Positions 1-34,503 of a stretch of 36,998 nt of DNA are shown here, one piece after another. The notes beneath the pieces are model-generated. The model ran no database searches, had not been told where the DNA came from, and was given only the letters and a program-made list of their open reading frames with translations. The stretch lies in assembly GCA_016203665.1 (NCBI GenBank), contig JACQMJ010000007.1, forward strand, positions 1-36,998. Direction: 5' to 3'. Made by a program: the position numbers and the translations under genes. Position 1 is the stretch's first letter. Every line of letters begins with the position of its first letter. The DNA is from Candidatus Sungiibacteriota bacterium. GTDB taxonomy: Bacteria; Patescibacteriota; Minisyncoccia; Sungbacterales; SURF-37.

Positions 1-2826
1 CAGGCCGTTGGTGAGGGACAGGCCGGCCGCAGTGATCCCGCCCGCATACGTCGAAGTCCCTGTGCCGCGAATGTCGAGCGTCTGGGCAAATACGCCCAGG
101 CCCTTGACCAGGAGGCCGCCGGAGGAAGTGGTGGCTTCGCCGACGCCGAGGCCGGCGGTGAAGTAGCCGGAGCCGACGGTGGAGAAGGTAACTGCCGGAC
201 CGGTTGTGGCGATTCCGATATTGCCGGAGGAATCAATGGTCAGGCGCGGGCTGGCATTGGAGGCGGTGTAGAAGTTTAACGAGGTTGTTGAGAAAAGGCT
301 CTGCGTGATCAAACCCGCGCCTTCAATGGTGGAGGTGCCGTTAGCCAGGAAGGGGCCGCGGACGGTCAAGAGGTGGGAAGGGGCGGTGGTTCCCACACCA
401 AGGTTGCCGGCAGCATCAAGGACCATGCGCGGCGCGACCGTCCCCGAGGTGTAGAAGGCTAGGGAGCCAGTAGCGGAGAGGGAGCCGCCGATGTTGAGCC
501 CGCCAAGGAGCGTGGAGGTGGCGTTGGCTAGGAAGCCGCCGTTGATGGCGAGGAGCGAGCCGGGGGAGGTCGTGCCGATGCCAACGCTTCCGCCGACGGT
601 AGCAAGGAGAGCCGAGGAGGTTGCGGTGAGCGTGCCGCCGAAGAAACCGCTGCCCGCGGTATAGACGTTTCCATGGATCGCGAGGAGCATTGCGGGCGTA
701 GTCGTCCCAATGCCGACATTGCCGGTGGTGTAATAGATGTCATTGCCGGAAGTTGTCCACTGCGAACTTCCCCCGCCGGCGGGACAGCCCTGGCAGGCGC
801 CGAGAATCTCGAGCGAACCGACGCGGAGGTGCTGCTTTATGTCCTCGCTGCCGATATTGGTCGATGTGGCGCCGGCTGATCCGTAAAGGATGGGTCCGGC
901 TACGCCGAGAAGAGCGGCCGGAGAGGAGGTGCCGATGCCGGCACTGCCGCTCGTGAGCGTGAAGCCGGTAAAGGTGGTGGTGCCGGTGAGCGTGCCGCCG
1001 GCCAACGACAGGTAATTCGTTACGGTAATGGAATCAGGGATGTCGGCATCGACGAGATTGAGCTGATTGGTCCCGGTGAGCGTTACGTTCGTTATGTTCG
1101 TGATGTTCTGCGAGTGCGAAAACGCCCGCAAGCTCGCCTTTGAGTCGAGCGCGCTCCACAGATTCGCGATGTCGGTGGTGGCTTTGGAGAGACGGGATTC
1201 CAAAGAGGTGAGAGGCGAGAAGATGGAGGGCAAAGGCGCCGAAACCTCGCGGATGATTTCCCGGACCACGACCGGCGCCGAGGGAGCAGTGCCAGTTGGT
1301 GTAGCCGCTGAGGGAGGGGTCTTGGCAAGGATTTTCGGTGCTGTTTCATTTATTGCCGGCAGCAGTATCGGCGGGTTCGGACTGGTAACCTTTTTGATGT
1401 GGTTGCCGATGAATAGCCGTACGGCGTCAAAGGGGTTTGCGAAGGCGAAAGCGGCGGTGCGGGAAACGGCTGCCGCGCCCGATGCCAGCGATCGGCTGTT
1501 CTCCAACAGCATGGCAACTCTTCCCCGGGGGGTGATGGCTGACGGTGGCGATGCATTTATTCCGTCCATGCGTGTGGCCGGCGGGGCAGAATCAAGGTGG
1601 TGAAAGCTATTTTTAATCATCAGTGAGAGCGTATCATCCGGCTGAAGCCATTGGGTTATTTTCGCGGCGGTTCCACGGAGAATTTGCTCGTATTTTCGGT
1701 CTGAATGGAGGTATACCGGTATACCTCTGGGTAGGGGCGGCGCTGATAATTGAAATTCTGCCGCCATGCGTTTGCGGACGCCTGCGAATACATCCGCGCG
1801 TATGACATCGCGGAGCGGCGTGAACGTGCGGCTGGGCTGGTTGGTGGTGATAGTAACGGCGGCGAACTGCCGGTTGGCCTCGAGGTACGGCGAAACCGCG
1901 CGCCATAGGCGTTCAAACGTAACGGCTTCCGGCGTTATGAATATCTGCGGCGTTTGCGGCGCGGATGCGTCAAACGCAGCGTGCGTCCTGCCCCGAATCG
2001 GAAAAGGCTTAGTAAAATGAAGCGGCAGGGCGATGGCATCGCGAAATATGCCAGCGGGCACCGCCTCGCGGATGGATGACACAAGGGCCATGGGCGGCCG
2101 GAGGCTGATTTCGGGGAAACGCGGCAGCGCCGCAATATGCCGTTCACGCAGTACATCCTTCAGGAATGCGAACGCCTCGCGGGGATTGGGTGTAAATAGC
2201 GGAGGCTGTTCGGCATAAGGAGGCAGGGACAGCGGGCGCCGCTGATTGCGAAAGGAGGCGGCGGCAGTGGCTAGTATCCGATCCCGGATGGAGGTGAATC
2301 CCATTGCCGCCTGACCCCAAAATTGCGTCCCCCAGGATGGTTTTGGGGTTTGCCCATCATTTCCGCCCACAAGGGCGGAGCGTCCGGGCTGCAGCGGGGT
2401 GAGCGCATGGCGCGGCCCCGCGAGAAACGGCTGTCTGAACGCGCCGTCCAGGACAATTCCGGGCAGGCGGATGTCGCGGAGAGCGGGAAGGGCGTCGGCG
2501 AAATAGGGGACGCTCAAAAGCGCCGCCGCAGCGGCGAGTACCGCCGAAATTTTCCATGTCCGCTGGGGTCGCCGCAGGGGCGCCTGCTCCACCGCAAGCT
2601 GTTTGGCGTGGGAGCGGGCACGCCGCTCGGTAACGCATAGCGTCTCCTCGGCAAGGCGAACGATGTATGCGAATTCCTCCGGCGTGTAATACCGCCAGCC
2701 GTATGCATCCCGCCGCGCCGGCGGGATCTTGCCCTCGGTTTCCCAGCGGATGAGGGTGGTTTTCTTCCGCCCCAGCCGCTTCATGAGGTCCGCGAGCTGA
2801 TAAGTTTTCTTTTGGTCGTCCGACAT
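1..2826 (-). CDS. Large membrane-anchored protein, 3' end off window: N-terminal MerR-type HTH, one TM helix, tail-fibre-like Gly/Thr repeat region
   Basis: In plus-strand codon phase 1,4,7... there is no TTA/CTA/TCA from base 1 to 2967, so the minus frame is open. ATG at 2826. Absent from the ORF track because it has no in-window stop. N-terminus MSDDQKKTYQLADLMKRLGRKKTTLIRWETEGKIPPARRDAYGWRYYTPEEFAYIV matches the MerR HTH signature. TM helix WKISAVLAAAAALLSVPYF at 2500-2556, preceded by RRPQRTWK. The distal part has YLSLAGGTLTG and repeats GNVGIGTTTP, GSVGIGTTSP, GNLGVGTTAP, GNIGIATTGP. Confidence 0.75.
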   Translation of the reverse strand, partial: MSDDQKKTYQLADLMKRLGRKKTTLIRWETEGKIPPARRDAYGWRYYTPEEFAYIVRLAEETLCVTERRARSHAKQLAVEQAPLRRPQRTWKISAVLAAAAALLSVPYFADALPALRDIRLPGIVLDGAFRQPFLAGPRHALTPLQPGRSALVGGNDGQTPKPSWGTQFWGQAAMGFTSIRDRILATAAASFRNQRRPLSLPPYAEQPPLFTPNPREAFAFLKDVLRERHIAALPRFPEISLRPPMALVSSIREAVPAGIFRDAIALPLHFTKPFPIRGRTHAAFDASAPQTPQIFITPEAVTFERLWRAVSPYLEANRQFAAVTITTNQPSRTFTPLRDVIRADVFAGVRKRMAAEFQLSAPPLPRGIPVYLHSDRKYEQILRGTAAKITQWLQPDDTLSLMIKNSFHHLDSAPPATRMDGINASPPSAITPRGRVAMLLENSRSLASGAAAVSRTAAFAFANPFDAVRLFIGNHIKKVTSPNPPILLPAINETAPKILAKTPPSAATPTGTAPSAPVVVREIIREVSAPLPSIFSPLTSLESRLSKATTDIANLWSALDSKASLRAFSHSQNITNITNVTLTGTNQLNLVDADIPDSITVTNYLSLAGGTLTGTTTFTGFTLTSGSAGIGTSSPAALLGVAGPILYGSAGATSTNIGSEDIKQHLRVGSLEILGACQGCPAGGGSSQWTTSGNDIYYTTGNVGIGTTTPAMLLAIHGNVYTAGSGFFGGTLTATSSALLATVGGSVGIGTTSPGSLLAINGGFLANATSTLLGGLNIGGSLSATGSLAFYTSGTVAPRMVLDAAGNLGVGTTAPSHLLTVRGPFLANGTSTIEGAGLITQSLFSTTSLNFYTASNASPRLTIDSSGNIGIATTGPAVTFSTVGSGYFTAGLGVGEATTSSGGLLVKGLGVFAQTLDIRGTGTSTYAGGITAAGLSLTNGL
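1708..1727. repeat. 20-bp perfect palindrome GAGGTATACCGGTATACCTC (core GGTATACCGGTATACC), copy inside the large ORF
   Basis: Read directly; it is self-complementary. The 16-bp core is identical to the copy at 2945-2960. Confidence 0.9.
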
Positions 2827-2852
2827 GCGATTACTGTAAAAACGAAAAGCGC

Positions 2853-2928
2853 TCCAGCATGTTTGCTGGAACGCCTTTTTGGTTTTCCCGATTGGATTAG
2901 GGGAAAGGAATTCCAGCATGAATGCTGG
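2853..2928 (-). repeat. Two near-identical short hairpins (CCAGCA-TGNN-TGCTGG) 60 nt apart in the leader of the large ORF
   Basis: TCCAGCA-TGTT-TGCTGGA at 2853-2870 and CCAGCA-TGAA-TGCTGG at 2913-2928. Both lie between the upstream palindrome and the ATG at 2826. Confidence 0.6.
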
Positions 2929-2942
2929 CTTTTCTTTCCCTT

Positions 2943-2962
2943 GTGGTATACCGGTATACCAC
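2943..2962. promoter_or_regulatory. Candidate operator: 20-bp perfect palindrome GTGGTATACCGGTATACCAC, 117 nt upstream of the MerR-fusion start
   Basis: Perfect palindrome in the non-coding region just past the in-frame stop at 2968-2970. The same 16-bp core occurs at 1710-1725. Confidence 0.5.
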
Positions 2963-3084
2963 TTTTTCTATGCTACCATCGCGCGCGGCATTGGCAATAG
3001 AGGTGTGGATAACCCAGCGGCCCCAAATTGGCTCCCCGGGTAAGTCCTGCCGACAGTTTTAAGCCTGTTGCGGCAAGCCCAGAC

Positions 3085-3116
3085 ATATAAAACACCGCCC
3101 CGCGAATGCGGGGCGG
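3085..3116 (-). terminator. Rho-independent terminator of the 3124-3324 gene
   Basis: 9-bp GC stem CCGCCCCGC / GCGGGGCGG with a GAAT loop, followed on the minus strand by TGTTTTATAT. Confidence 0.6.
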
Positions 3117-3123
3117 CGTCCGT

Positions 3124-3324
3124 TCATTTCAGCAAAGCCTTCAGCGATTTTTTGCGCCGGCGCTTCAGGAGCGTGCCGAGCTGCCAGGCGTCATGCCCGG
3201 CGAATGATCGGCGGTAGCGCTTGTGGAGCGTTTTAACTTTGGTATCGCTCCGCTTTTTCCTTAAGCGGCCGCTGGTCTTGTCCCGCGCTCTCCAGCCTTT
3301 CATTTTGGGTGCGTCTTTGACCAT
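3124..3324 (-). CDS. Small highly basic protein (66 aa), function unknown
   Basis: ATG-to-TGA ORF with its own terminator 8 nt downstream. K/R-rich sequence ending SLKALLK. No family assigned. Confidence 0.5.
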   Translation of the reverse strand: MVKDAPKMKGWRARDKTSGRLRKKRSDTKVKTLHKRYRRSFAGHDAWQLGTLLKRRRKKSLKALLK

Positions 3325-3450: not shown

Positions 3451-3912
3451 ATGATGCGTCGCTTGAGCGTACTCGCGCTCGCCGCAGTCCTCCTCGTCGC
3501 CCTTGCTGTGCCCGCCTACGCCGGCGGCCGGCATCGTGGCGGCAACACCGCCACCAACGTGGCGCTCGGGCTCGCGAGCTTCGCGGTGTTCAACCAGCTG
3601 ATGGGCTCCTTCACGGACAACCACCGCGATAACCACCGCTGGCACACCCGGACGTTCGTCTATGAGCAGCAGCCGGTCGTCTTCGCCGCACCGGCGCCGG
3701 TGGCCTACCAGATGGCACCGGTGGTCGTTGCTCCGCCACCGCCACCGCCGCCGCAGACGGTCTACTACCCGCACGGCCGGTACGAGTTCTCCGGAAGCCA
3801 GTGGGTGTGGATTCCGAACGCGCCCGCAGCACCGCCGCCATCGGCCTCCGCGTGCCAGCCGACGGGGAAGTACGTCAAGACCCCGCAGGGCATCTTGCCC
3901 GAGTGCCAGTAA
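3451..3912 (+). CDS. Secreted proline-rich protein with a C-terminal Cys-bracketed GKYVKTPQG loop
   Basis: SD AAAGGGAGGGGG lies 5 nt before the ATG at 3451; the track start 3418 lacks an SD. Signal peptide MMRRLSVLALAAVLLVALAVPAYA, a PPPPPPP run, and C-terminus CQPTGKYVKTPQGILPECQ shared with the 27079-27699 protein. Confidence 0.7.
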   Translation: MMRRLSVLALAAVLLVALAVPAYAGGRHRGGNTATNVALGLASFAVFNQLMGSFTDNHRDNHRWHTRTFVYEQQPVVFAAPAPVAYQMAPVVVAPPPPPPPQTVYYPHGRYEFSGSQWVWIPNAPAAPPPSASACQPTGKYVKTPQGILPECQ

Positions 3913-3926
3913 GGTGCTGCCGCTCA

Positions 3927-3965
3927 CCGGACAGGTTCCGCGCCTGTCCGGCTTTTTGTTGTTTT
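3927..3965 (+). terminator. Rho-independent terminator
   Basis: CCGGACAGG / CCTGTCCGG stem followed by CTTTTTGTTGTTTT. Confidence 0.7.
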
Positions 3966-23039: not shown

Positions 23040-24254
23040 ATGCGCACATCCTACTCGGCGCTGGAAACCTATAAGCTCTGCACGCAGAAATTCAAGTTTC
23101 AGGTCATTGACCGCATCCCGGCGTCAAAACCCAAAGCCGCCATCTTCGGCACGCACGTGCATAGGACCCTGCGCTATATGTTTTCGGCCGATCCCCTCTT
23201 CCCCACTCTGGATCAGGTGCTGGATTTTTTCCGCAATAACTTCCCTCCGCCGGATCAATTTGACGCCTCGCCCGAGGAAAAAGATCTCTATCTCGCCTCC
23301 GGCGAGCGCATGCTGAAAAATTTTTACGCCCGAAACGCGCCCTGGAACTTCTCGGTTGTTGATCTGGAATCCCATTTTGAAGTTCTCATGGAGGATACGC
23401 GGCGGCGCGAAACGCACGTGCTGGCCGGCCGCATTGACCGCATTGATAAGACCGCGACGGGTTATGAGGTGATTGATTATAAGACCAACCGCCGCCTGCC
23501 TTCGCAGGCCGCGGTGGACGCTGACCTCCAGATGTCCATCTACGCCCTGGGATTGCAAAAGCGCTGGCCGCACCTGGAACCAGAGGATGTTACCCTCTCG
23601 CTCTATTTCCTGAAGCACAGCGAGAAGCTCTCCACGCGCCGCACGGCCGCATCAGCGGCCGAGACGGCCCGCGAGGTACTCGGCGCCATTTCGGAGATTC
23701 AGGGCAAGCTCGCGTCGGGCGAACGCTTCGAGCCGATCCCCGGCCCGTACTGCGCCGTCTGTCCGTACCAGCCAATCTGCCCGGCCTGGCGCCACCTCTA
23801 CCGGAAGCAGGAAGCCGGAATCAAGAGCCAGGAAGAAATTGACGCCGCCATCAAAGAGTACTTTTCGCTCCTGAAGGCCCGCGAGGCGCACCAGGCGCGC
23901 CTGGACGAGCTGAAATTGCAGATTCGCGCCTATATGGAAGCCCAGGGGTATGACCGCCTCTTTGGCGAGGACGGCTACATCGCCCGCACGGTCCAGAAGC
24001 GCTTCGGCTACGATTTTGATAAGGTGCGTGCCGTACTCGAACCGCTTGGCAAGTGGCCGGAGATCCTCGTAGTCGATAGTAAACGTCTGAAGACACTTCT
24101 GCCGGCGATCCCGCCGGAGGCGCGTTCCGCCATCGCCGAGGCGAGAACGCTCATCCGCGAGTTCACCGTGCTCACGGCCAGCGCGAAAAAAATTCCGGCG
24201 CCGGAATCTGCTAGGGCGGCATCTGTTCCACCCCCACCGCAGGAGCCGGCGTAG
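23040..24254 (+). CDS. PD-(D/E)XK nuclease, Cas4/AddB-like with Cys cluster, plus a roughly 150-aa C-terminal extension
   Basis: MRTSYSALETYKLC, GTHVH, GRIDRID, VIDYKT, QMSIYAL, and CAVCPYQPIC (1+3 Cys as in 4Fe-4S Cas4-type nucleases). ATG at 23040; the track start 22983 is TTG. Confidence 0.85.
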   Translation: MRTSYSALETYKLCTQKFKFQVIDRIPASKPKAAIFGTHVHRTLRYMFSADPLFPTLDQVLDFFRNNFPPPDQFDASPEEKDLYLASGERMLKNFYARNAPWNFSVVDLESHFEVLMEDTRRRETHVLAGRIDRIDKTATGYEVIDYKTNRRLPSQAAVDADLQMSIYALGLQKRWPHLEPEDVTLSLYFLKHSEKLSTRRTAASAAETAREVLGAISEIQGKLASGERFEPIPGPYCAVCPYQPICPAWRHLYRKQEAGIKSQEEIDAAIKEYFSLLKAREAHQARLDELKLQIRAYMEAQGYDRLFGEDGYIARTVQKRFGYDFDKVRAVLEPLGKWPEILVVDSKRLKTLLPAIPPEARSAIAEARTLIREFTVLTASAKKIPAPESARAASVPPPPQEPA

Positions 24255-24950
24255 CGGGAAATAGATAATAGAGAATATAAAATATAAAACGCCGGGGTTT
24301 GGAACCTCGGCGTCCGGCCCTGGCGGGCACTGGCCTGGCCGGAGCAGATGTATGATTACGTACCAGTCCTCTGGTTCCCAAGGCGTTGGCCGTTCCCAGG
24401 ACCATATTGAAACGTAGCAGACGGCCGTTTTGTCCCCCAATCTGGCCGGGACTGCCGCAAAGGTAACCCCGAACATCCGTCCTTCGGCGGTGGCCTCGAC
24501 AACGGCGCTGGCCAGGCCGCTGAAGCGTACGCCTCGAGCGAAGAGCTGCAGGAACTGCAGCGTAAGGGTGCTCCGCTCCATGGTCGCGCGGGAAGCCGCA
24601 TCCAGGAATAGCCAAAGCGTCTCCACATCCCCGCGGGCAAAGGTGGCCTGGTAGGCGAGCGCGCGCTCGCGCAGTCCGGCCACGGAGTGCGGTGGAGGTG
24701 TCGGAGGAGCGTCGGGAACCGGAGTACGGGGGGTGTCTGGTGCGGGTTCGACCCGGATGTCCGCGCCAGCGCCGCCCGCGGCGAGTAGGATGATCGCCGT
24801 TACCGTGGCCAGGATAAGGATGGCGATGACAAGCCGGTGGGCTGTCCGCTGTTCCACCCGCGTTCCGGCCAATGCGGCGAGGGTTCGAACGAAGCCGCAC
24901 CGGTTCCTGTGCAGCTTGGAACGGAATCGGGATACGGGATGGTACGCCAT
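23652..24950 (-). CDS. Membrane-anchored hypothetical protein. Only about 24300-24950 looks coding; the formal ORF reads on through a terminator and antisense to the nuclease gene.
   Basis: AAGGAGG SD 6 nt before the ATG at 24950. TM LVIAILILATVTAIILLAAG, Pro-rich linker, then a globular domain of about 120 aa. Downstream of about 24300 the translation is Arg-rich antisense-like sequence. Confidence 0.5.
   Translation of the reverse strand: MAYHPVSRFRSKLHRNRCGFVRTLAALAGTRVEQRTAHRLVIAILILATVTAIILLAAGGAGADIRVEPAPDTPRTPVPDAPPTPPPHSVAGLRERALAYQATFARGDVETLWLFLDAASRATMERSTLTLQFLQLFARGVRFSGLASAVVEATAEGRMFGVTFAAVPARLGDKTAVCYVSIWSWERPTPWEPEDWYVIIHLLRPGQCPPGPDAEVPNPGVLYFIFSIIYFPLRRLLRWGWNRCRPSRFRRRNFFRAGREHGELADERSRLGDGGTRLRRDRRQKCLQTFTIDYEDLRPLAKRFEYGTHLIKIVAEALLDRAGDVAVLAKEAVIPLGFHIGANLQFQLVQARLVRLAGLQERKVLFDGGVNFFLALDSGFLLPVEVAPGRADWLVRTDGAVRAGDRLEAFARRELALNLRNGAEYLAGRLGR
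24276..24313 (-). terminator. Rho-independent terminator (minus strand) in the AT-rich gap after the nuclease gene
   Basis: ACGCCG.GG / CC.CGGCGT stem, then on the minus strand TTTTATATTTTATATT. Confidence 0.55.
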
Positions 24951-25040: not shown

Positions 25041-26099
25041 CTACTGTATAGAGGAGGTTTTTGTCGCCACGAAGCGTATGAGGATTACGTTCCCCTGCGG
25101 GTCCTCAAGCGGCAGGTCCTTGATATGGTTAAACTGGCGGTCGCCGTCGTCGGCGTGGAGCATGGCGAAATACACTCTCCCCTCCTCGGTCGGCCGGAGG
25201 AGCTCCGCCGTGCCGCTGCCCTGGCCGGCGTCAAAGCGCTTGGCGCCGAGGATGCGGCCGGGCCCGCCGCCATCGCTCTCATGGATGACCATCCAGCCGT
25301 CCCGCTCGAGCGCGACAAGACTGACAACTACCGTGAGCCCGGGCGGCTGGTCATTGACCGCAATGGCGTTTGCGCCGGCGAGCATGCTGCCAGTGCTCGG
25401 CGGCGGGATTTCCAGGCTTGCCGACGGCGCTGGCGTAGTTCGGCTTAAACTCTGTTCTGTTGGCAGTCCGGCAGTGCGGCCGAGCCAGAATCCTCCGGCA
25501 AGGCCGATGATGATGAATACGGCCGCCGCCGCCATTTTTTGATATGGATCCATCATGGCATTAAGGATTACGGTTTGCCGGTATCGTAGCAAACGGCGGG
25601 GATAGAAAAAAGCCGCGGCCCGGATGGGCAGCGGCTCGAGCCGACGGAACACCGCCTCACCCGGCGTAAGACCCTTCCACACGCGGTGACCCTGATATTC
25701 ACCTAAGATCGCCCCGAGCGTGGCATCGTAGGCCGCGTGGCTGGCGAGGAAGAGCTCCTTTTCGCCGAGCGGGCGCGCCTCGAACGTGAGCACGCGGAGC
25801 TGTGAAAGGCCGTCCTGTTCCATGGCTACGCTGATGGTGAAGTGTGGCGGTCCAGAGCCCGGTCCTGCCGCCTTTTCCTCTGCGGTGACGTGCCAGCGGC
25901 CCCGGGCGGCGCGTTCGCCGCCGTGCTCCCACCAGCTCCGGACCATGCTCCGGTATTCCGTAAAGAACTGCTGGAACCGCGGACTGGTGTTCGCCGGCGG
26001 GTGGAAGGTAAGCTCCGGCGCGTTCCCCTCCCCCGCCATCGCCCCAGGCACCGCGGTGAAAATTAACAGGAACGCCAGTACTGCGAGAACTCGCCACAT
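25041..26099 (-). CDS. Exported two-part protein: signal peptide plus N-domain, internal TM, C-terminal DUF7282-like beta domain
   Basis: GGGGGTGGAG SD before the ATG at 26099 (MWRVLAVLAFLLIFTAVPGAMA). Internal TM AAAAVFIIIGLAGGFWLG. C-terminal GWMVIHESDGGGPGRILGAKRFDAGQGSGTAELL...YFAMLHADDGDRQF resembles the recalled DUF7282-type domain. The track ORF starting at 26330 overlaps the RR gene. Confidence 0.68.
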   Translation of the reverse strand: MWRVLAVLAFLLIFTAVPGAMAGEGNAPELTFHPPANTSPRFQQFFTEYRSMVRSWWEHGGERAARGRWHVTAEEKAAGPGSGPPHFTISVAMEQDGLSQLRVLTFEARPLGEKELFLASHAAYDATLGAILGEYQGHRVWKGLTPGEAVFRRLEPLPIRAAAFFYPRRLLRYRQTVILNAMMDPYQKMAAAAVFIIIGLAGGFWLGRTAGLPTEQSLSRTTPAPSASLEIPPPSTGSMLAGANAIAVNDQPPGLTVVVSLVALERDGWMVIHESDGGGPGRILGAKRFDAGQGSGTAELLRPTEEGRVYFAMLHADDGDRQFNHIKDLPLEDPQGNVILIRFVATKTSSIQ

Positions 26100-26205
26100 G
26101 GCTCCACCCCCAGATGGATAGTTTGGATTTTTGCGAGCGTAGCATAATCTTGCCAAAAGAAAAACGGGCATCACTGGGAGCGACACCCGTTCGAACCGGC
26201 CCGGA

Positions 26206-26571
26206 TCAGGACAGGAGTTCGGCGATCTTAGGGCCGATATCGTCCCACGAAACGGGTTTAAGGAACACCGCGTCCGCTCCGGCGGCCAGTGCGCGGGCGT
26301 TGGTCTCCGGGGAGTTATCCCCGGTAACAAGGAGAGCTTTCACATCCGGATAATTGCGCCTCACGTGGCCGATGAGCTCGATACCGTTCATGCCCGGCAT
26401 TTGATAGTCGGTGATGACGAGGCCGATGGTGTTCTCGGCGGCAAGCCGCTGGCGCGCGGTTTCGCCATCAATGGCCGTCAGCGTCTCGTAGCCGCTCGAC
26501 CGCACAAGCTCTTCAATGGCAGCCAGGACCTCTGGCGTGTCGTCAACAACGAGGATCCGCTTCAAGCTCAT
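26206..26571 (-). CDS. Stand-alone response regulator receiver domain (CheY-like)
   Basis: ILVVDD, phospho-acceptor context LVITDYQMPGMNG, and FLKP Lys. GGAGAGGAG SD. Confidence 0.9.
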   Translation of the reverse strand: MSLKRILVVDDTPEVLAAIEELVRSSGYETLTAIDGETARQRLAAENTIGLVITDYQMPGMNGIELIGHVRRNYPDVKALLVTGDNSPETNARALAAGADAVFLKPVSWDDIGPKIAELLS

Positions 26572-26915: not shown

Positions 26916-26936
26916 AGTTCTTATAATCTCTTGCAG

Positions 26937-26988
26937 AGCACCACGGCCGGCTCGCCTCGCCGAAGCTTTGGCGAAGCGCGGGAAGGCC
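26937..26988. repeat. 52-nt intergenic repeat, copy 1 (REP-like, hairpin around an AAGCTT core)
   Basis: AGCACCACGGCCGGCTCGCCTCGCCGAAGCTTTGGCGAAGCGCGGGAAGGCC. Identical to 31207-31258 except for one base. Confidence 0.85.
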
Positions 26989-27019
26989 GTAGGTCTCTAT
27001 GATAACAGGTTTGCGGCGT

Positions 27020-27060
27020 AAAAAAAATCGGGCAGCATCGTGGTCGTACAGATGCTACCC
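27020..27060 (-). terminator. Rho-independent terminator of the lipoprotein gene
   Basis: Minus strand GGGTAGCATC / GATGCTGCCC (one G-U pair), followed by GATTTTTTTT. Confidence 0.75.
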
Positions 27061-27078
27061 GTGTCCTTTGCGGGACCG

Positions 27079-27699
27079 CTACTCGCAGAGCGGCATGAAG
27101 CCCTGCGGCGTCTTCACGTACTTGCCGCTCGGCTTGCAGGATGTGGCCGCGGCCGGCGGCGCCGTAGCTCCGGTTGGCTGGGTCGGCGGAGGCGGCGGCG
27201 GAGGCGGAGGAACGTAAGCCGGAGCAGGCTGTGCCGCCGGCGCCGGCGCGCCCGGAACCAGATGCCCGGCGGCGTACATGCAGCTTTGGAACTCCACATT
27301 CCAGCGCTGCTGGATGCGGCTTGCGTCGGCCTGCGCCTGGTGCGTGCCGGCGCCGAGGCCGCCAAAGAGTCCAGCTCCCCCGCCTGCGGCCGCGCCTATT
27401 CCGGCTCCCTTGCCGCCGCCGACAGCGCCGCCGAGGGCAGCGCCTGCTGCGGCACCGAGTAACGTGCCGATAACCGTGGTTGCGGCCTGTTTCTCCTGCA
27501 CCATGGCCGGATCGCCGGCGCGGGCAGTGGCCAGCCGACGGCAATTCTCGTCATCCTGGTTGAACTGCGCCTGGGTCTTGCCGCTGCCAATGAACACAGG
27601 CGCAGTCGGTCCGACCGGGCCGTAGGTGGCGCAGCCGGTGAGGAGAAAGATCGCGAGGAGCGGGGGCACGGGCAGCCGTGCCCACTGGCGTGACATCAT
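27079..27699 (-). CDS. Lipoprotein with a glycine-zipper region, poly-Pro tract and C-terminal Cys-bracketed GKYVKTPQG loop
   Basis: AAGGAGG SD. Lipobox LLTGC, glycine zipper GAAAGAALGGAVGGGKGAGIGAAAGGGAGLFGGLGAG, a PPPPPPPPP run, and C-terminus CKPSGKYVKTPQGFMPLCE. Confidence 0.8.
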   Translation of the reverse strand: MMSRQWARLPVPPLLAIFLLTGCATYGPVGPTAPVFIGSGKTQAQFNQDDENCRRLATARAGDPAMVQEKQAATTVIGTLLGAAAGAALGGAVGGGKGAGIGAAAGGGAGLFGGLGAGTHQAQADASRIQQRWNVEFQSCMYAAGHLVPGAPAPAAQPAPAYVPPPPPPPPPTQPTGATAPPAAATSCKPSGKYVKTPQGFMPLCE

Positions 27700-27723
27700 G
27701 GGGTCCTCCTTTCCTTCCGAGAG

Positions 27724-28071
27724 TTATCGCTGCTGCGGCGGCGCGGTCTCCGGCAGTACCTTCAGCCAGGCGTTCCCCGCACACTCCCGCACATAGGGGT
27801 AGAACCCCTGCGGGCTGTTGCACCAGTACCAGACGATCTCGCGGGTTGGCTCGGCCGCGGGGCGCTGGCCGTAGGTCTGGGGCGCGGACTGTATCACGAT
27901 CTGCGGCGAAACATACACCTCCGGAGGGTAGAGCGGCCCGACGGCGTGCGGCCACCAGCCCCACCCCCAGAGAGGGTGGCCATAGTACCAATGGTAGGCC
28001 TCGGCCGGCGCCGCCGCTGTGAGTGCAAGAACGACGAGCAGGAGAACAGCGAGCGTACGCGGTGTTCTCAT
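27724..28071 (-). CDS. Small secreted protein with a W/Y-rich N-terminus and a CNSPQGFYPYVREC loop
   Basis: GGGGAGGGG SD before the ATG at 28071. Signal peptide MRTPRTLAVLLLVVLALTAAAPAEA. The track start 28182 lacks support. Confidence 0.7.
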   Translation of the reverse strand: MRTPRTLAVLLLVVLALTAAAPAEAYHWYYGHPLWGWGWWPHAVGPLYPPEVYVSPQIVIQSAPQTYGQRPAAEPTREIVWYWCNSPQGFYPYVRECAGNAWLKVLPETAPPQQR

Positions 28072-28239
28072 CCATCCCCTCCCCGGGAGCGGCTGGCTGG
28101 TCGCTGGAAGTTGCTGGAATATAAGATCTTCTCCTTTCAGCGTAGGCTTTCCTCTGTCGCTGTCAAAAGGAGTTGCGCACACGGAACATTACATCCGTTG
28201 GCCGTGCTCTAATTATTAGCAGAACGTCGGCTCGTCGCA

Positions 28240-32235: not shown

Positions 32236-34503
32236 CTACCGCCTGCCTTTTAGGAACCGCGTAAAACTCTGAAGCGCGTTTGCGGCATTTTCCTGGATGC
32301 CGCCGGGGCGCGAGCTTGTCGGCGCCGATGGCAGGATGCAAGCCGTTCCATTCCACGAGCCGCCGCTCTCGGTGCAGCGCTTGATCTCTTCATCTGCGGA
32401 CGGCGGGATCGCGGAGGGATAAGCCGTTTCTGGAGGCAATGGGTAGCTTCCTTCGGGAGTCAGATTGCGGAGGCGTTCGGTCTCCTCTTGCATTCGGCGC
32501 TGGGTTTCGGCCTCAATTTGCTTCTGGATTTCGGCGTCTATCTGCTGCCGGTTTTGCTGCTGGAACTCCTGACGGATGCGATCGGCATCGGCTCCGCCGG
32601 GGAATTGGCTGTCCGTTGCCCCGCCACCGGGGAATTGTCCTTCCGTAGCGCCTCCGCCCGGGAACGGTACTTGTCCTTCAAATTGGCGCCTGAACTCTTC
32701 GGGTATTTGCCCTTCCTTCCCTTCCGGGAGCTGGCGCCGTCGGAGGGCCTCCTCTTCAAACTGACGCTGGATTTCTTCACGGATGCTTCCGGGCTTCCCT
32801 TCGCCGTCAAATCCAGGCGGCGGACCGCCGTGGTCCGGACCTCCGGGCGGGCCGGCGAGCGCGGCGCATTTCTCGGCGTTTTCCGGCTGCTGGCAAAGAG
32901 CCATGCATTCCTCGCGCGAGCGGCAGTTTAAAGTTTTGGCAAAACCAGCTTCTTCCGGATTTATCTGCCCGGATTTAACGGAAAATTGAACGCACTCCTC
33001 GCTGTTGGCTGGATCTTTGCAAAATTCCTCGCATTCGTCCCTGGAACGGCATCCGCCCGGACCCGAGCCGCCGGCCTGGCGCGCCATCTCGGCGTCCTCG
33101 GATGAAATGAGGCCGGTTCGCTCGGCAAAGGAAACGCAATCCTCAACATGCTCCGGGTCGCCGCAATAGGCCTCGCACTGCTCCTTGGAACGGCATCCGC
33201 CCGGGCCAGCGCCTCCGGTTTTACGCGCGAGTTCGGCATCTTCTTTTGAAATAAAGCCGCTGCGTTCGCCGAAGTCAAGGCATTCCTCAAGGTGTCCCTC
33301 CCCGCCGCAGTAGGCTTCACATTGCTCTTTTGAACGGCACCCGCCCGGCGTCTCGCCGCGCTCCATCAGCGGGAGGAATTTTTTGGCCTGTTCAAGCTCC
33401 TCCGGCGGTATTAAGCCGTTTGATTCGGCAAAGGCCAGGCATTCGCGCATGTTCCCCGGCTGCTGGCAGTAGGCCTCACAGCTTTCTTTTCTGGTGCATC
33501 CGCCCGGCGTTTTGCCTTCCTTTATAAGCGGCAGCATTTTTTTGGCTTGAGCCAGCTCTTCCGGCGGTATCAGGCCGGATCGTTCGGCAAAGGCCAGGCA
33601 CTCTTCCATGTTGCCCGACTGCTGGCAATAAGTTTCGCATTGCGCCTTCGTGGTGCAGCCGCCGGGGAATTGAACGCCTTCGCGCCGCACTTTGGCCACG
33701 GCCTGCGCTTCTTCAAGCTCTTTTCCAGAAAGGAACCCGTTCTTCTCGGCAAATTCCAGGCACTCGTCAATGCGCGTGATGTCCTCGCAATAGGCCGCAC
33801 AGCTCTCGCGGCTGGTGCATCCGCCCGGCCCCCTGCCGCCGGCTTCGGCAAAGCGGCGGCCCTCGGCTGCCTCCTCGGCCGTAATAAGGCGGTGCGATTC
33901 GGCATAGGCGATGCATGTTTTAATGTTGGCCAGCTCTTCGCAGTAAGCGCGGCAGGAGACTTCACTGCCGCAGTTTCCAAGCTCGGCAATGGGGTATTTT
34001 AATTCAGCCTTGACTGCCTCGGCTTCAGCTTCGCTTTTTGCCGGTCGAGAAGTTGGCGTCTCGGCTGCAGCTTCGCTCTCTGACGCTTTCTCTTCCGGAG
34101 CCGGCGGCGGTGCCGGCGGCTTGAGCCGCTTTGATCTCGTAGCCCCGTCTTCGGGCGGCGGGATTTCCAGCTCATCGGTGTTGCCAGAGCAGTCGGTAAT
34201 GCTTGCCGCCATGACCGGCGTGAAGTCGGCCGGGTCCGCGAATAGGACGTTCGTATTCTGGAACACTCGCGGGCACTTGGCGATCTCGCCGCCGTAGGGC
34301 CCTTTACCGGATGGCACAAGCGAGAAAGATTTGATGCCGTCGCCGTCATTGATGGTGAGCGTGAAAAGGCCATTGGAATCTTTTTTCAGCGAAACAAAAG
34401 CGCTGGCGGCGCCGGCTGTCCCGGCGGCAAACAGCATGGCCGCGGCGAGCAAAATTGCGCCAGCGGCATGCGCCGGCTTGAGGCTAATCAAATGGGTTTT
34501 CAT
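32236..34503 (-). CDS. Secreted 755-aa protein with eight tandem 4-Cys modules and a Q/E/R-rich C-terminal region
   Basis: Signal peptide MKTHLISLKPAHAAGAILLAAAMLFAAGTAGAASA. Eight modules with strict C-x5-C-x3-C-x8-C spacing (e.g. PGGCRSKEQCEAYCGDPEHVEDCVSFAERTGLISSEDAEMA). QFPGGGAT repeated three times. Confidence 0.8.
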   Translation of the reverse strand: MKTHLISLKPAHAAGAILLAAAMLFAAGTAGAASAFVSLKKDSNGLFTLTINDGDGIKSFSLVPSGKGPYGGEIAKCPRVFQNTNVLFADPADFTPVMAASITDCSGNTDELEIPPPEDGATRSKRLKPPAPPPAPEEKASESEAAAETPTSRPAKSEAEAEAVKAELKYPIAELGNCGSEVSCRAYCEELANIKTCIAYAESHRLITAEEAAEGRRFAEAGGRGPGGCTSRESCAAYCEDITRIDECLEFAEKNGFLSGKELEEAQAVAKVRREGVQFPGGCTTKAQCETYCQQSGNMEECLAFAERSGLIPPEELAQAKKMLPLIKEGKTPGGCTRKESCEAYCQQPGNMRECLAFAESNGLIPPEELEQAKKFLPLMERGETPGGCRSKEQCEAYCGGEGHLEECLDFGERSGFISKEDAELARKTGGAGPGGCRSKEQCEAYCGDPEHVEDCVSFAERTGLISSEDAEMARQAGGSGPGGCRSRDECEEFCKDPANSEECVQFSVKSGQINPEEAGFAKTLNCRSREECMALCQQPENAEKCAALAGPPGGPDHGGPPPGFDGEGKPGSIREEIQRQFEEEALRRRQLPEGKEGQIPEEFRRQFEGQVPFPGGGATEGQFPGGGATDSQFPGGADADRIRQEFQQQNRQQIDAEIQKQIEAETQRRMQEETERLRNLTPEGSYPLPPETAYPSAIPPSADEEIKRCTESGGSWNGTACILPSAPTSSRPGGIQENAANALQSFTRFLKGRR
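32851..33978 (-). repeat. Intragenic tandem repeat region (8 modules of 43-54 codons)
   Basis: Protein residues 176-551. The DNA also repeats, e.g. recurring GCATCCGCCCGG-type segments. Confidence 0.8.

What the first reader, a model, noticed from the sequence alone, without database searches (positions are those of the whole stretch)
1..2967. Unlisted >942-codon ORF fusing a MerR-type HTH, one TM helix and a tail-fibre-like repeat ectodomain
This is the longest ORF in the window, and the supplied track omits it because it runs off the left edge. I checked every plus-strand codon in phase 1,4,7... from base 1 to 2967 and found no TTA, CTA or TCA. From the ATG at 2826 the product has three parts:
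- An N-terminus with a textbook MerR HTH pattern (LIRWETEGKIPPARRDAYGWRYYTPEEF).
- A positively flanked TM helix at residues 91-109.
- More than 800 residues ending in YLSLAGGTLTG and GN(V/L/I)GIGTT.P repeats, which are typical of phage tail-fibre or collar-like surface proteins.

A cytoplasmic MerR DNA-binding head tethered through the membrane to a fibre-like outer domain would be a one-component transmembrane regulator, with a ToxR/CadC-like topology. I do not know of a characterised example with this domain combination.
Basis: partly seen in the sequence, partly recalled or inferred. Interest (0 to 1): 0.8.

Follow-up and report, generated by a model that had tools for sequence, protein, structure and literature searches.

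The report
MerR-headed membrane-anchored fibre protein in Patescibacteria
A candidate-phyla-radiation (Patescibacteria-like) bacterium encodes a long surface fibre, related to those predatory bacteria use to grab prey, whose inner end is fused through one membrane helix to a small MerR-type DNA-binding domain; this recurs across the group and may link surface fibres directly to gene control.

Summary
The minus-strand frame from 2967 to 1 is open for 989 codons, scores as coding in every 100-codon block, and is base-identical with no indels in a second public assembly that breaks at almost the same point. From ATG 2826 the 942-residue product has six parts: a MerR-type winged HTH (9-51), one hydrophobic segment (93-110), a basic orphan region (111-485), a proline-rich linker, a helical neck, and five "GnvGiGT..P" units homologous to Bdellovibrio MAT and phage tail fibres.

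The fusion is not a one-off. The HTH clade is almost confined to Patescibacteria. In 56 reference genomes, 19 loci have the HTH fused to a hydrophobic helix and a variable outer domain. About 27 have a ~70-aa HTH gene directly upstream of a gene for an N-terminally anchored surface protein, some homologous to the fused ones.

GTATAC tandem repeats are enriched at these promoters. Here GGTATACCGGTATACC lies just after the -10 box and again inside the ORF.

Best reading: a membrane-anchored fibre adhesin with a built-in autoregulator. Host-contact sensing (the ToxR-like idea) is possible but untested. Signal-peptidase cleavage after the helix is not excluded. I rate this a new variant of a known kind, with moderately high interest.

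The parts
1..2826 (-). Coding sequence of the HTH-helix-fibre protein. It is 5'-complete from ATG 2826, gives 942 residues, and is truncated at its 3' end by the contig edge. An alternative upstream ATG at 2919 would add 31 residues.
   Evidence: The sequence is identical in a second assembly. Relatives start 2-6 residues before the conserved 'Y(R/Q)L.DL' motif, which matches ATG 2826. The NCBI gene caller chose 2919.
2674..2802 (-). MerR-type winged helix-turn-helix, residues 9-51: helix 11-18, recognition helix 22-31 and a beta-wing at 37-47.
   Evidence: Pfam MerR_1 and MerR. Family profile against PDB: MerR 4ua1, E 2.3e-7. AlphaFold2 pLDDT above 90 for residues 10-60. All Foldseek top hits are MerR-family domains, including RacA, BldC and SoxR at 1.7-2.5 A rmsd.
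2584..2682 (-). A single long helix after the wing (residues 49-81), followed by a basic, low-confidence linker leading to the membrane.
   Evidence: helix 49-81, pLDDT 79-93. The Pfam MerR_1 match covers only model positions 1-42 of 69.
2497..2550 (-). Hydrophobic segment, residues 93-110 (ISAVLAAAAALLSVPYFA). It is either a signal-anchor or an internal signal peptide, with A-D-A|L at 110-113.
   Evidence: It corresponds to the N-terminal signal or anchor of the split-form partner proteins.
1372..2496 (-). Basic orphan region, residues 111-485 (net charge +18, pI 11.2, 11% Pro). Putative wall-spanning or wall-binding stalk.
   Evidence: No relative was found in 1.84 billion representatives or in the metagenome scan. 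Only L002 aligns weakly, over residues 4-267. Composition. It scores as coding in frame.
952..1371 (-). Pro/Ala-rich linker and helical neck, residues 486-625. It holds the conserved motifs VV.EIIREV, ESR.SK..TDIANLW and NL.DADIPDSITVTNYL..GG.L.G.
   Evidence: Shared with L002 (44%, E 1e-25) and P0002/L004 (40%, E 6e-43). A helix at residues 537-564 is the only semi-confident element of the C-terminal model.
1..951 (-). Fibre repeat region, residues 626-942. It has five 'PR.tiD..GnvGiGT..P...L.V' units and a Cys-x-G-Cys motif, and its tip is missing.
   Evidence: Profile against PDB: Bdellovibrio MAT fibres Bd2133 (5e-7), Bd3182 (1e-4) and Bd1334 (9e-3). PHROG 9942 tail fiber, 5e-10. Repeat positions.
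2970..2997 (-). Sigma-70-like promoter candidate: TTGCCA, 16-nt spacer, TG-n-TAGCAT.
   Evidence: This is a consensus match only.
2945..2960 (.). Tandem palindrome GGTATACCGGTATACC, beginning about 9 nt downstream of the -10 box (the flanking GT/AC extends the palindrome to 2943-2962). Candidate operator for the HTH.
   Evidence: There are only two copies in the window against 0.04 expected. GTATAC repeats are enriched upstream of family HTH genes.
1710..1725 (.). A second identical GGTATACCGGTATACC inside the ORF (codons ~367-373), read in a different frame from the upstream copy.
   Evidence: Flanks are unrelated beyond a few matching bases beside the 16-mer, so this is a DNA-level feature and not a protein repeat.
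2838..2940 (-). Structured 5' leader: a two-tier hairpin (2901-2940) and a terminator-like hairpin with a U-tract (2838-2887), just before the start codon.
   Evidence: Fold energy -57.9 kcal/mol against -29.0 +/- 3.4 for shuffles, z = -8.6. The terminator-like hairpin is conserved in L002, L004 and L005, with compensatory changes at 6 of 14 pairs. No Rfam match.

Best explanation
The gene encodes a type II (N-in, C-out) membrane-anchored surface fibre of a Patescibacteria (CPR) bacterium. Outside the cell there is a basic stalk, a short helical neck, and a trimeric beta-helix fibre of the kind found in Bdellovibrio MAT adhesins and phage tail fibres. Its likely role is adhesion to another cell.

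At the cytoplasmic end sits a minimal MerR-type winged HTH. In sister genomes this HTH is a separate ~70-aa gene immediately upstream of the anchored surface-protein gene, so it is the dedicated regulator of that gene, here fused to it.

The HTH most likely binds the tandem GGTATACC repeats just downstream of the gene's own -10 box, and the second copy inside the ORF, to autoregulate transcription. Because the fibre is expected to trimerise, fusion would bring several HTH copies together at the membrane. DNA binding would then track the amount or assembly state of the fibre.

Shown: the ORF, the domain identities, the recurrence of the fusion, the fusion/fission relationship, the charge asymmetry and the motif enrichment. 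Inferred: trimerisation, DNA binding to GTATAC repeats, autoregulation and the adhesin role.
For: - The ORF is real and continuous.
- The MerR wHTH is supported by sequence, profile and structure. The MerR signature residues (T-L-x-R-W-E, G-x-I-P, G-W-R-Y-Y) are invariant or nearly so across the clade.
- 24 of the 28 relatives of at least 190 aa have one hydrophobic segment after the HTH. Across 40 non-redundant fused proteins the net charge is +2.4 before the segment and about 0 after it, which indicates a cytoplasmic HTH.
- The clade is almost confined to Patescibacteria genomes. 19 loci are fused, and about 27 have a short HTH gene whose next gene (0-204 bp away, same strand, sometimes overlapping by 1-13 bp) encodes an N-terminally anchored protein.
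- The L029 partner is 43% identical (E 1e-46) to residues 95-343 of fused L003/P0006, starting at the helix. The L042 and L047 partners also match.
- The fibre is homologous to MAT structures and to PHROG tail-fibre families. A split-form partner carries Peptidase_S74.
- GTATAC upstream of HTH genes: 17 observed against 1.9 expected (P 2e-11). Against other genes in the same loci the ratio is 10/56 to 11/241, OR 4.5, P 0.002. The sites form tandem ~8-bp units at or just downstream of -10 boxes, in both fused and split loci.
- BldC is a precedent for a minimal MerR-like domain that binds repeats as a multimer (PMC5859096).
Against: - There is no direct evidence of DNA binding or regulation.
- In some loci (L006, L050) the GTATAC motif coincides with the -10 hexamer itself, so part of the enrichment could reflect promoter sequence rather than an operator.
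- Only 10 of 56 loci carry the motif.
- The membrane helix is predicted from hydropathy alone, and AlphaFold confidence there is low.
- The hydrophobic segment here is short (18 residues) and is followed by an A-x-A motif, so the HTH and fibre may be separated by signal peptidase.
- The fibre tip and any S74 domain are missing because both assemblies break in the repeats.
- Trimerisation is inferred by homology only, and the single-sequence model of the C-terminus failed.
- The window's Patescibacteria origin is inferred only from its relatives, since no marker gene was placed taxonomically.
Confidence: 0.5

Rival explanations
1. Outside-in sensor. The intact protein is a ToxR/CadC-style membrane-bound one-component regulator. 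Binding of the fibre tip to a host cell changes the oligomeric state or geometry of the cytoplasmic HTHs and switches a regulon for attachment or parasitism.
For: The topology matches ToxR/CadC. The fibre class is used for prey recognition in Bdellovibrio (PMC10769870). Cultivated Patescibacteria are episymbionts whose host-recognition mechanisms are largely unknown (abstract of PMC12206443). HTH copy number varies (two tandem HTHs in P0002, L015 and L016), which suggests that valency matters.
Against: The split form, with a free HTH and a separate fibre gene, is at least as common and cannot transmit a signal through the membrane. No recognisable sensor domain is present. The only two exact operator-like sites in 37 kb lie in the gene's own promoter and body, which points to autoregulation rather than a regulon. 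A 375-residue, probably flexible stalk lies between the membrane and the fibre.
Confidence: 0.2
2. Cleaved precursor. The hydrophobic segment is an internal signal peptide. After Sec export, signal peptidase I cuts after A-D-A (residue 112) and frees the fibre. A ~112-residue HTH-plus-signal-peptide stub stays in the membrane and may be released by further proteolysis. One regulator molecule would then be made per exported fibre subunit.
For: The segment has the n/h/c layout of a signal peptide: RRPQRTWK, a 14-residue h-core, Pro at -6, and Ala at -3 and -1. L002 (…LWSQA|A) and L004 (…SFA|S) look similar. L015, L016, L028, L011, P0039 and P0048 have textbook A-x-A sites. The segment corresponds to the N-terminal signal sequences of the split partners, e.g. 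…EKASA|VNS in L014.
Against: Family-wide, the uncharged segment has a median length of 23 residues, which is anchor-like, and only 12 of 40 proteins have A-x-A near its end. No SignalP or DeepTMHMM was available. A fibre released from the membrane would need another means of attachment to the cell.
Confidence: 0.2
3. Artefact or dual-product gene. The HTH and the fibre are really two genes, joined in silico by an error that removed a stop, or the fibre is translated on its own from an internal start (GTG at residue 79).
For: In split relatives the two genes are 0-30 bp apart or overlap by 1-13 bp, so a small indel can fuse them. The spacing from the HTH to the helix here (~30 residues) is about what read-through of such a junction would give. 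An in-frame GTG at residue 79 would give a normal signal peptide, MEQAPLRRPQRTWK….
Against: Two assemblies that differ by 3 SNPs have the identical uninterrupted frame. The coding signal is continuous. Continuous HTH-linker-helix alignments exist with L002 (residues 4-267), L005 (5-117), L037 and L050. Fused forms occur at 36-60% GC in unrelated CPR lineages. No Shine-Dalgarno precedes the GTG, though most genes here lack one.
Confidence: 0.06
4. DNA-membrane tether. Like RacA, the MerR-like domain anchors specific chromosomal sites to the envelope rather than regulating transcription.
For: RacA's MerR-like domain is among the best local structural matches (rmsd 2.0-2.2 A). The protein is membrane-bound.
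Against: There are only two sites in 37 kb, both in its own gene. Free cytoplasmic ~70-aa paralogues dominate the clade, which does not fit a tethering role.
Confidence: 0.04

Closest known systems
Bdellovibrio bacteriovorus MAT (mosaic adhesive trimer) fibres such as Bd2133, Bd3182 and Bd1334, and the related phage S74-type tail fibres
   Same: They share the repeating beta-helix 'capping-loop' unit (…PR.tiD..GnvGiGT..P...L.V, compared with the MAT consensus V-G-G/N-pi-x-x-P-x-x-x-L). There is profile-level homology to three solved MAT structures (PMC10769870). Both are long, modular, surface-displayed fibres in a bacterium that lives on other cells. A relative's fibre carries Peptidase_S74.
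   Different: MATs begin with a signal peptide followed by a conserved ~130-aa beta-rich domain and have no DNA-binding domain. This protein instead has a cytoplasmic MerR HTH, a hydrophobic helix and a basic orphan stalk. The tip domain is unknown because the gene is truncated.
ToxR / CadC / TcpP membrane-bound one-component regulators
   Same: The topology matches: a cytoplasmic N-terminal DNA-binding domain, one membrane helix and an extracytoplasmic C-terminal domain.
   Different: Their DNA-binding domain is of the OmpR/PhoB winged-helix type, whereas this one is MerR-type. Their outer domains are compact sensors, whereas this one is a fibre of more than 800 residues. The function here is untested.
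BldC (Streptomyces), a 68-residue MerR-like protein
   Same: It is a minimal MerR-like wHTH without an effector domain. It superposes structurally at 2.0-2.5 A. It binds tandem repeats as cooperative multimers (PMC5859096), which could apply to the tandem GGTATACC units. The stand-alone ~70-aa CPR relatives are the same size.
   Different: The family profile did not retrieve BldC by sequence at E<=1, while classical MerR proteins were retrieved. BldC is soluble and is not linked to surface-protein genes.
Classical MerR-family regulators (MerR, CueR, SoxR, HiNmlR)
   Same: The N-terminal wHTH signature and fold are shared.
   Different: There is no effector-binding domain. The Pfam match stops at model position 42 of 69. 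The promoter candidate has a 16-bp spacer with the palindrome downstream, rather than a site inside a 19-20 bp spacer.
RacA (Bacillus subtilis chromosome-anchoring protein)
   Same: It has a MerR-like wHTH linked to the cell envelope and is a good local structural match.
   Different: RacA reaches the membrane indirectly through DivIVA, has no transmembrane or extracellular part, and binds many sites near the origin.

Membership tests
MerR family (Pfam MerR / MerR_1) | N-terminal winged helix-turn-helix with the MerR signature | tested here: met
   MerR_1 scores 23.4 bits against GA 21.6 on the full protein. The isolated module scores 29.2 (MerR_1) and 33.5 (MerR, GA 28.2). 38 of 38 clade members match both models. 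Profile against PDB: MerR 4ua1, 2.3e-7. The fold is confirmed.
MerR family (Pfam MerR / MerR_1) | Long antiparallel coiled-coil dimerisation helix after the DNA-binding domain | tested here: inconclusive
   The model has one 33-residue helix (49-81). However, the Pfam match ends at model position 42 of 69, and stand-alone clade members end at ~65-72 residues, leaving no room for such a helix.
MerR family (Pfam MerR / MerR_1) | C-terminal effector or ligand-binding domain | tested here: not met
   The HTH is followed by a linker, a hydrophobic helix and the extracellular region, and no effector domain was detected.
MerR family (Pfam MerR / MerR_1) | Operator inside an over-long (19-20 bp) -35/-10 spacer | tested here: not met
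   The promoter candidate has a 16-bp spacer, and the palindrome lies downstream of the -10 box. These are consensus predictions only.
ToxR/CadC-type membrane-bound one-component regulators | Cytoplasmic N-terminal DNA-binding domain, single transmembrane helix, extracytoplasmic C-terminal domain | tested here: met
   Based on hydropathy and the charge asymmetry (+4 before the segment, 0 after; family mean +2.4 against 0). This is a prediction only; no dedicated topology predictor was available.
ToxR/CadC-type membrane-bound one-component regulators | OmpR/PhoB-type winged-helix DNA-binding domain (Trans_reg_C) | tested here: not met
   Only the MerR, MerR_1 and HTH_17 models match.
ToxR/CadC-type membrane-bound one-component regulators | Signal-dependent transcriptional control while membrane-bound | not testable with these tools
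   This needs genetics or biochemistry.
MAT / S74-type trimeric beta-helix fibres | Repeated capping-loop motif within the beta-helix, and sequence homology to solved fibres | tested here: met
   There are five units. Profile hits: 8OND 5e-7, 8OJN 1e-4 and 8OML 9e-3. The motif definition comes from PMC10769870.
MAT / S74-type trimeric beta-helix fibres | Signal peptide followed by the conserved ~130-aa beta-rich N-terminal domain | not tested
   No sequence or structure of that MAT domain was on hand. In that position this protein has an HTH, a helix and a basic orphan region with no detectable homologues.
MAT / S74-type trimeric beta-helix fibres | C-terminal S74 chaperone/protease or an alternative adhesive tip | not testable with these tools
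   The 3' end is missing in both assemblies. The split-form relative in L043 has Peptidase_S74.
MAT / S74-type trimeric beta-helix fibres | Trimeric assembly | not testable with these tools
   Only monomer prediction was available, and the single-sequence model had pLDDT 34.
BldC-like minimal MerR-like proteins | Small wHTH lacking dimerisation and effector domains that binds tandem repeats as a multimer | tested here: inconclusive
   The fold matches, and tandem 8-bp GTATAC units lie at the promoters. However, BldC is not retrieved by the sequence profile, and DNA binding is untested.

The most novel reading that the evidence does not exclude
These proteins are a Patescibacteria-specific class of contact sensors. 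A trimeric adhesin fibre that grips the host cell is wired directly, through one membrane helix per chain, to MerR-type DNA-binding heads. Host attachment or fibre assembly is then read out at the chromosome without any kinase or second messenger. This would be the first MerR-type membrane-tethered transcription factor and the first host-contact signalling device proposed for CPR bacteria.
Probability: 0.2. Interest if true: 0.85.

Novelty: new variant of a known kind. Interest (0 to 1): 0.62.

Why it matters
How ultrasmall Patescibacteria recognise and hold on to their host cells is largely unknown, and so is how they regulate genes with so few regulators. This locus shows that they carry fibres related to the prey-recognition fibres of Bdellovibrio. 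It also shows that a lineage-specific clade of minimal MerR-like proteins is consistently fused or adjacent to genes for anchored surface proteins, with a candidate operator.

That yields concrete, testable hypotheses about surface-protein control and possibly contact sensing. It also gives a defined protein-DNA pair (residues 1-85 and GGTATACCGGTATACC) that can be tested in vitro without cultivating the organism. For annotation, it shows that 'MerR family transcriptional regulator' calls in CPR genomes often mark the start of a giant surface protein.

Tried and rejected
- **Full-length word-indexed search:** it returned only the window's own protein, because the candidate list was saturated by repeat words.
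- **Residues 1-121 in the same tool:** nothing was returned, so that search was wasted.
- **Exhaustive HMMER with residues 1-560:** relatives of the HTH only. The middle region is an orphan.
- **Metagenome scan with six middle-region peptides:** no orthologue.
- **Neck peptide scan:** five distant fibres, none with an HTH in cis or nearby.
- **Completing the 3' end:** this failed. The 80-kb NCBI contig starts 106 bp inside the window, and the Logan contigs do not reach the gene.
- **Viral contigs:** no relative of the HTH clade. Together with the housekeeping neighbourhood, this rejects a phage or prophage origin for the locus.
- **Rfam:** nothing matches the leader.
- **Single-sequence AlphaFold2 of residues 535-942:** pLDDT 34, unusable, so no fold search was run.
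- **Signal peptide versus anchor:** only a home-made charge, length and A-x-A count was possible, and it did not settle the question.
- **Classical MerR activation at a long-spacer promoter:** rejected, because the spacer is 16 bp.
- **Literature:** four searches found no description of a membrane-anchored MerR-type protein or of this fusion. Absence from this open-access library is not proof of absence.
- **Taxonomy:** cluster look-ups returned no names.

Full report

Translating the minus strand from base 2967 to base 1 gives 989 sense codons. A stop lies immediately upstream, and in-frame ATGs lie at 2919 and 2826. At 60% GC a stop-free run of this length has a chance probability of about 1e-14 (my arithmetic). 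It is the longest ORF in the window.

Under a codon model trained on twelve housekeeping genes of the window, frame 1 scores best in all nine 100-codon blocks, and nearly all other frames contain stops. A second public assembly (GCA_964559385.1, contig CAZLFX010000004.1, 80,104 bp) begins at window base 107. It matches the window over 16,866 bp with three substitutions, all outside the ORF, and no indels.

The frame is therefore continuous in two assemblies that are not byte-identical. Nothing suggests a join or frameshift near 2450-2600. Both assemblies end inside the fibre repeats, so the 3' end stays unknown.

Relatives begin 2-6 residues before the conserved Y(R/Q)L.DL motif, which favours ATG 2826 as the start. 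Most genes of the window lack Shine-Dalgarno sequences, so its absence there carries little weight.

**2. Anatomy of the 942-residue product**

| Residues | Feature | Evidence |
|---|---|---|
| 9-51 | MerR-type winged HTH | See below |
| 49-81 | Single long helix, then a basic linker | |
| 93-110 | 18-residue uncharged segment, +4 net charge before and 0 after, ending in P-Y-F-A-D-A | |
| 111-485 | Basic region (net +18, pI 11.2, 11% Pro) | |
| 486-625 | Pro/Ala-rich linker and helical neck with conserved motifs | |
| 626-942 | Five units of the type PR.tiD..GnvGiGT..P...L.V | |

For the HTH, Pfam MerR_1 is above its gathering score. All 38 aligned clade members match both MerR models. The clade profile hits the MerR structure 4ua1 at 2.3e-7.

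An AlphaFold2 model built on 57 sequences has pLDDT above 90 for residues 10-60. It shows helix 11-18, recognition helix 22-31 and a beta-wing. Every top Foldseek match is a MerR-family DNA-binding domain. The best local superpositions are on SoxR, RacA and BldC at 1.7-2.5 A.

The basic region (111-485) has no detectable relative in an exhaustive HMMER search of 1.84 billion representatives or in a metagenome scan. Only L002 aligns weakly across residues 4-267.

A profile of the neck and fibre part hits three solved Bdellovibrio MAT fibres: Bd2133 at 5e-7, Bd3182 at 1e-4 and Bd1334 at 9e-3. The matching unit is the 'capping loop' those authors defined for trimeric beta-helix fibres related to phage S74 fibres (PMC10769870). 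PHROG 9942 (tail fiber) matches at 5e-10.

**3. Setting**

The neighbourhood is ordinary chromosome: a histidine kinase, a class II aminoacyl-tRNA synthetase (D/K/N type), ScpA/ScpB, a D-Ala-D-Ala carboxypeptidase, MraY, MurD, FtsW, MurG, GltX, an M23 peptidase and XerC-like integrase. The HTH clade has no relatives in the viral contig collection. The locus is therefore not a prophage.

**4. The fusion is a family trait**

All 101 non-self hits of the exhaustive search match through the HTH only. Of the 28 that are at least 190 aa long, 24 have one hydrophobic segment downstream of the HTH. Several continue into fibre sequence that is homologous to this ORF:

| Relative | Residues of this ORF matched | Identity | E-value |
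|---|---|---|---|
| P0002 (= L004) | 535-779 | 40% | 6e-43 |
| P0034 | 626-892 | 40% | 1e-40 |
| L002 | 486-647 | 44% | 1e-25 |
| L002 | 4-267 | 30% | 4e-23 |

A scan of one genome per species found 56 loci. Nearly all are in Patescibacteria, including Parcubacteria, Saccharibacteria, Falkowbacteria, Buchananbacteria, Komeilibacteria and Colwellbacteria. Nineteen encode HTH-helix-X proteins of up to 1639 aa, at 36-60% GC, and some have two tandem HTHs.

About 27 loci encode a stand-alone HTH of ~66-140 aa. In those, the next gene lies on the same strand, 0-204 bp away or overlapping by 1-13 bp. It encodes a protein with an N-terminal hydrophobic helix. This partner is usually ~360 aa with no Pfam match. 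In L012, L042 and L043 the nearby gene is a 1560-1919+ aa giant. One giant has Peptidase_S74, and L042 has strong tail-fibre PHROG hits.

The partner in L029 is 43% identical (E 1e-46) to residues 95-343 of the fused L003/P0006 protein, starting at the helix. The partners in L042 and L047 match the same region.

This is a genuine fusion/fission relationship. The 'TM helix' of the fused proteins corresponds to the N-terminal signal or anchor sequence of the split partners. More distant fibres of the same class have no HTH at all. Where a source names members of the clade, the name is 'MerR family transcriptional regulator'.

**5. A candidate operator and a structured leader**

Upstream of ATG 2826 lies a sigma-70-like TTGCCA-16-TAGCAT. 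About 9 nt after it comes GGTATACCGGTATACC. The identical 16-mer recurs at 1710-1725 inside the ORF in a different reading frame. These two 16-mers are the only matches in the window (up to 3 mismatches allowed), against 0.04 expected.

Across the 56 loci, GTATAC occurs 17 times in the 250 bp upstream of the HTH genes, against 1.9 expected (P 2e-11). Five control palindromes are not comparably enriched. Against the upstream regions of other genes in the same loci the figures are 10/56 and 11/241, giving OR 4.5 and P 0.002.

The sites form tandem ~8-bp units:

| Locus | Sequence |
|---|---|
| window | GGTATACC GGTATACC |
| L042 | GGTATAGT GGTATACC |
| L043 | AGTATACT GGTATAGC GGTATACT |
| L029 | GGTATACT AGTATACG |

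They lie at or just after -10 boxes, in both fused and split loci, and mostly in loci linked to long fibres. In L006 and L050 the motif coincides with the -10 hexamer itself, which is a caveat.

The 143-nt leader folds into three hairpins with z = -8.6. The terminator-like hairpin just before the start codon is kept in L002, L004 and L005, with compensatory changes at 6 of 14 pairs. No Rfam family matches.

**6. Mechanism**

Most likely (about 0.5), this is a membrane-anchored adhesin fibre with a built-in copy of its own small regulator. The positive-inside asymmetry places the HTH in the cytoplasm: family mean +2.4 before the helix against 0 after it.

The split loci show that the HTH's ancestral role is as a small soluble DNA-binding protein encoded directly upstream of the surface-protein gene. 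The same promoter motif is conserved in fused and split loci, which suggests that the fused HTH still acts on that DNA.

A fibre of this class is expected to be a trimer, by homology with MAT and S74 fibres. Fusion would therefore cluster HTHs at the membrane. BldC shows that minimal MerR-like domains can bind tandem repeats cooperatively (PMC5859096).

DNA binding, autoregulation, trimerisation and adhesion are all inferences.

**7. Rivals**

The topology fits, but the abundance of split forms, the lack of a sensor domain and the self-directed operator sites argue for something simpler.
- **Cleaved precursor (about 0.2).** In this protein and its closest relatives the hydrophobic segment has the n/h/c layout and A-x-A motif of a signal peptide. 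Family-wide, however, the segments are anchor-length (median 23 residues), and only 12 of 40 have A-x-A near the end. This is unresolved without SignalP, DeepTMHMM or proteomics.
- **Artefact or internal start (about 0.06).** Small indels can interconvert the split and fused forms, and an in-frame GTG at residue 79 exists. Against this, two assemblies agree and the fused forms are phylogenetically widespread.
- **RacA-like DNA tether (about 0.04).**

**8. Comparison and novelty**

The fibre part behaves as a member of the MAT/S74-type beta-helix fibre class at the level of the repeat unit. The HTH is a MerR-family DNA-binding domain but lacks an effector domain and a long-spacer operator. ToxR/CadC membership fails on the DNA-binding domain type, so only the topology is shared.

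I found no description of a MerR-helix-fibre protein, or of this CPR HTH/surface-protein linkage, in four literature searches. I rate it a new variant of known kinds (membrane-tethered DNA-binding proteins and trimeric fibre adhesins). Interest is moderately high because the layout is recurrent, lineage-specific, and linked to the open question of how Patescibacteria attach to hosts.

Noticed in passing
window 2945-2960 and 1710-1725: The identical 16-bp tandem palindrome GGTATACCGGTATACC occurs twice, 1.2 kb apart and in different reading frames. These are the only GTATAC sites in the 37-kb window. One copy lies just after the -10 box and the other deep inside the ORF. The intragenic copy could be an auxiliary operator, a looping site or a roadblock, but it remains unexplained.
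   Followed up: partly
window 2838-2966 (minus strand); also L002:5868-6000, L004:5855-5997, L005:5835-5960: The 5' leader folds into three strong hairpins (z = -8.6). One is a terminator-like stem with a U-tract 12-60 nt before the start codon, and it is conserved with compensatory changes in three relatives. No Rfam family matches. It could be an attenuator, or the 3' end of a small RNA driven by the same promoter.
   Followed up: partly
L013, L014, L017, L018, L022, L026, L027, L032-L036, L038-L041, L045, L048 (e.g. L013:5998-9130): There is a conserved Patescibacteria gene cassette. A ~70-aa MerR-like HTH gene is followed 20-35 bp later by a ~360-aa protein with an N-terminal signal or anchor. 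In most of these loci a second ~340-aa protein of the same kind comes next. Neither has a Pfam match, and their C-termini end in G.Y..TLTY-type strands.
   Followed up: partly
P0024 (1015 aa): This protein consists almost entirely of about 14 or more tandem MerR-like HTH repeats and has no hydrophobic segment. It is an extreme multi-HTH array in a more distant branch of the same clade.
   Followed up: no
window 3124-3324 (minus strand): A 66-residue, very Lys/Arg-rich ORF (MKGWRARDKTSGRLRKKRSD…) with its own strong terminator at about 3090-3125 sits between the fibre gene and a divergent promoter region. It is called as a gene in the NCBI assembly, and no homologue was seen in related loci.
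   Followed up: no
window 3451-3912 (plus strand): A small secreted protein (153 aa) with a clear signal peptide (MMRRLSVLALAAVLLVALAVPAYA|GG), a poly-proline run and a strong Shine-Dalgarno (AGGGAGGGGG). The Shine-Dalgarno is unusual in a window where most genes have none. A terminator lies at 3927-3951.
   Followed up: no
window, whole: Most protein-coding genes lack a recognisable Shine-Dalgarno sequence upstream of the start codon. Several start with TTG or GTG in tightly packed or overlapping arrangements.
   Followed up: no
window 23652-24950, 25041-26330, 26921-28075, 32236-34503 (minus strand): Several large ORFs (432, 429, 207, 174 and 755 aa) have no Pfam family, or only a DUF (DUF7282). 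They were not examined further.
   Followed up: no
window 1 / L063 1 (contig ends): Two assemblies of this organism end within 106 bp of each other inside the fibre repeats. The closest relatives (L002, L004, L015, L016, L028) also run off contig ends inside their fibre genes. These genes are therefore systematically truncated in short-read MAGs and probably under-annotated.
   Followed up: partly
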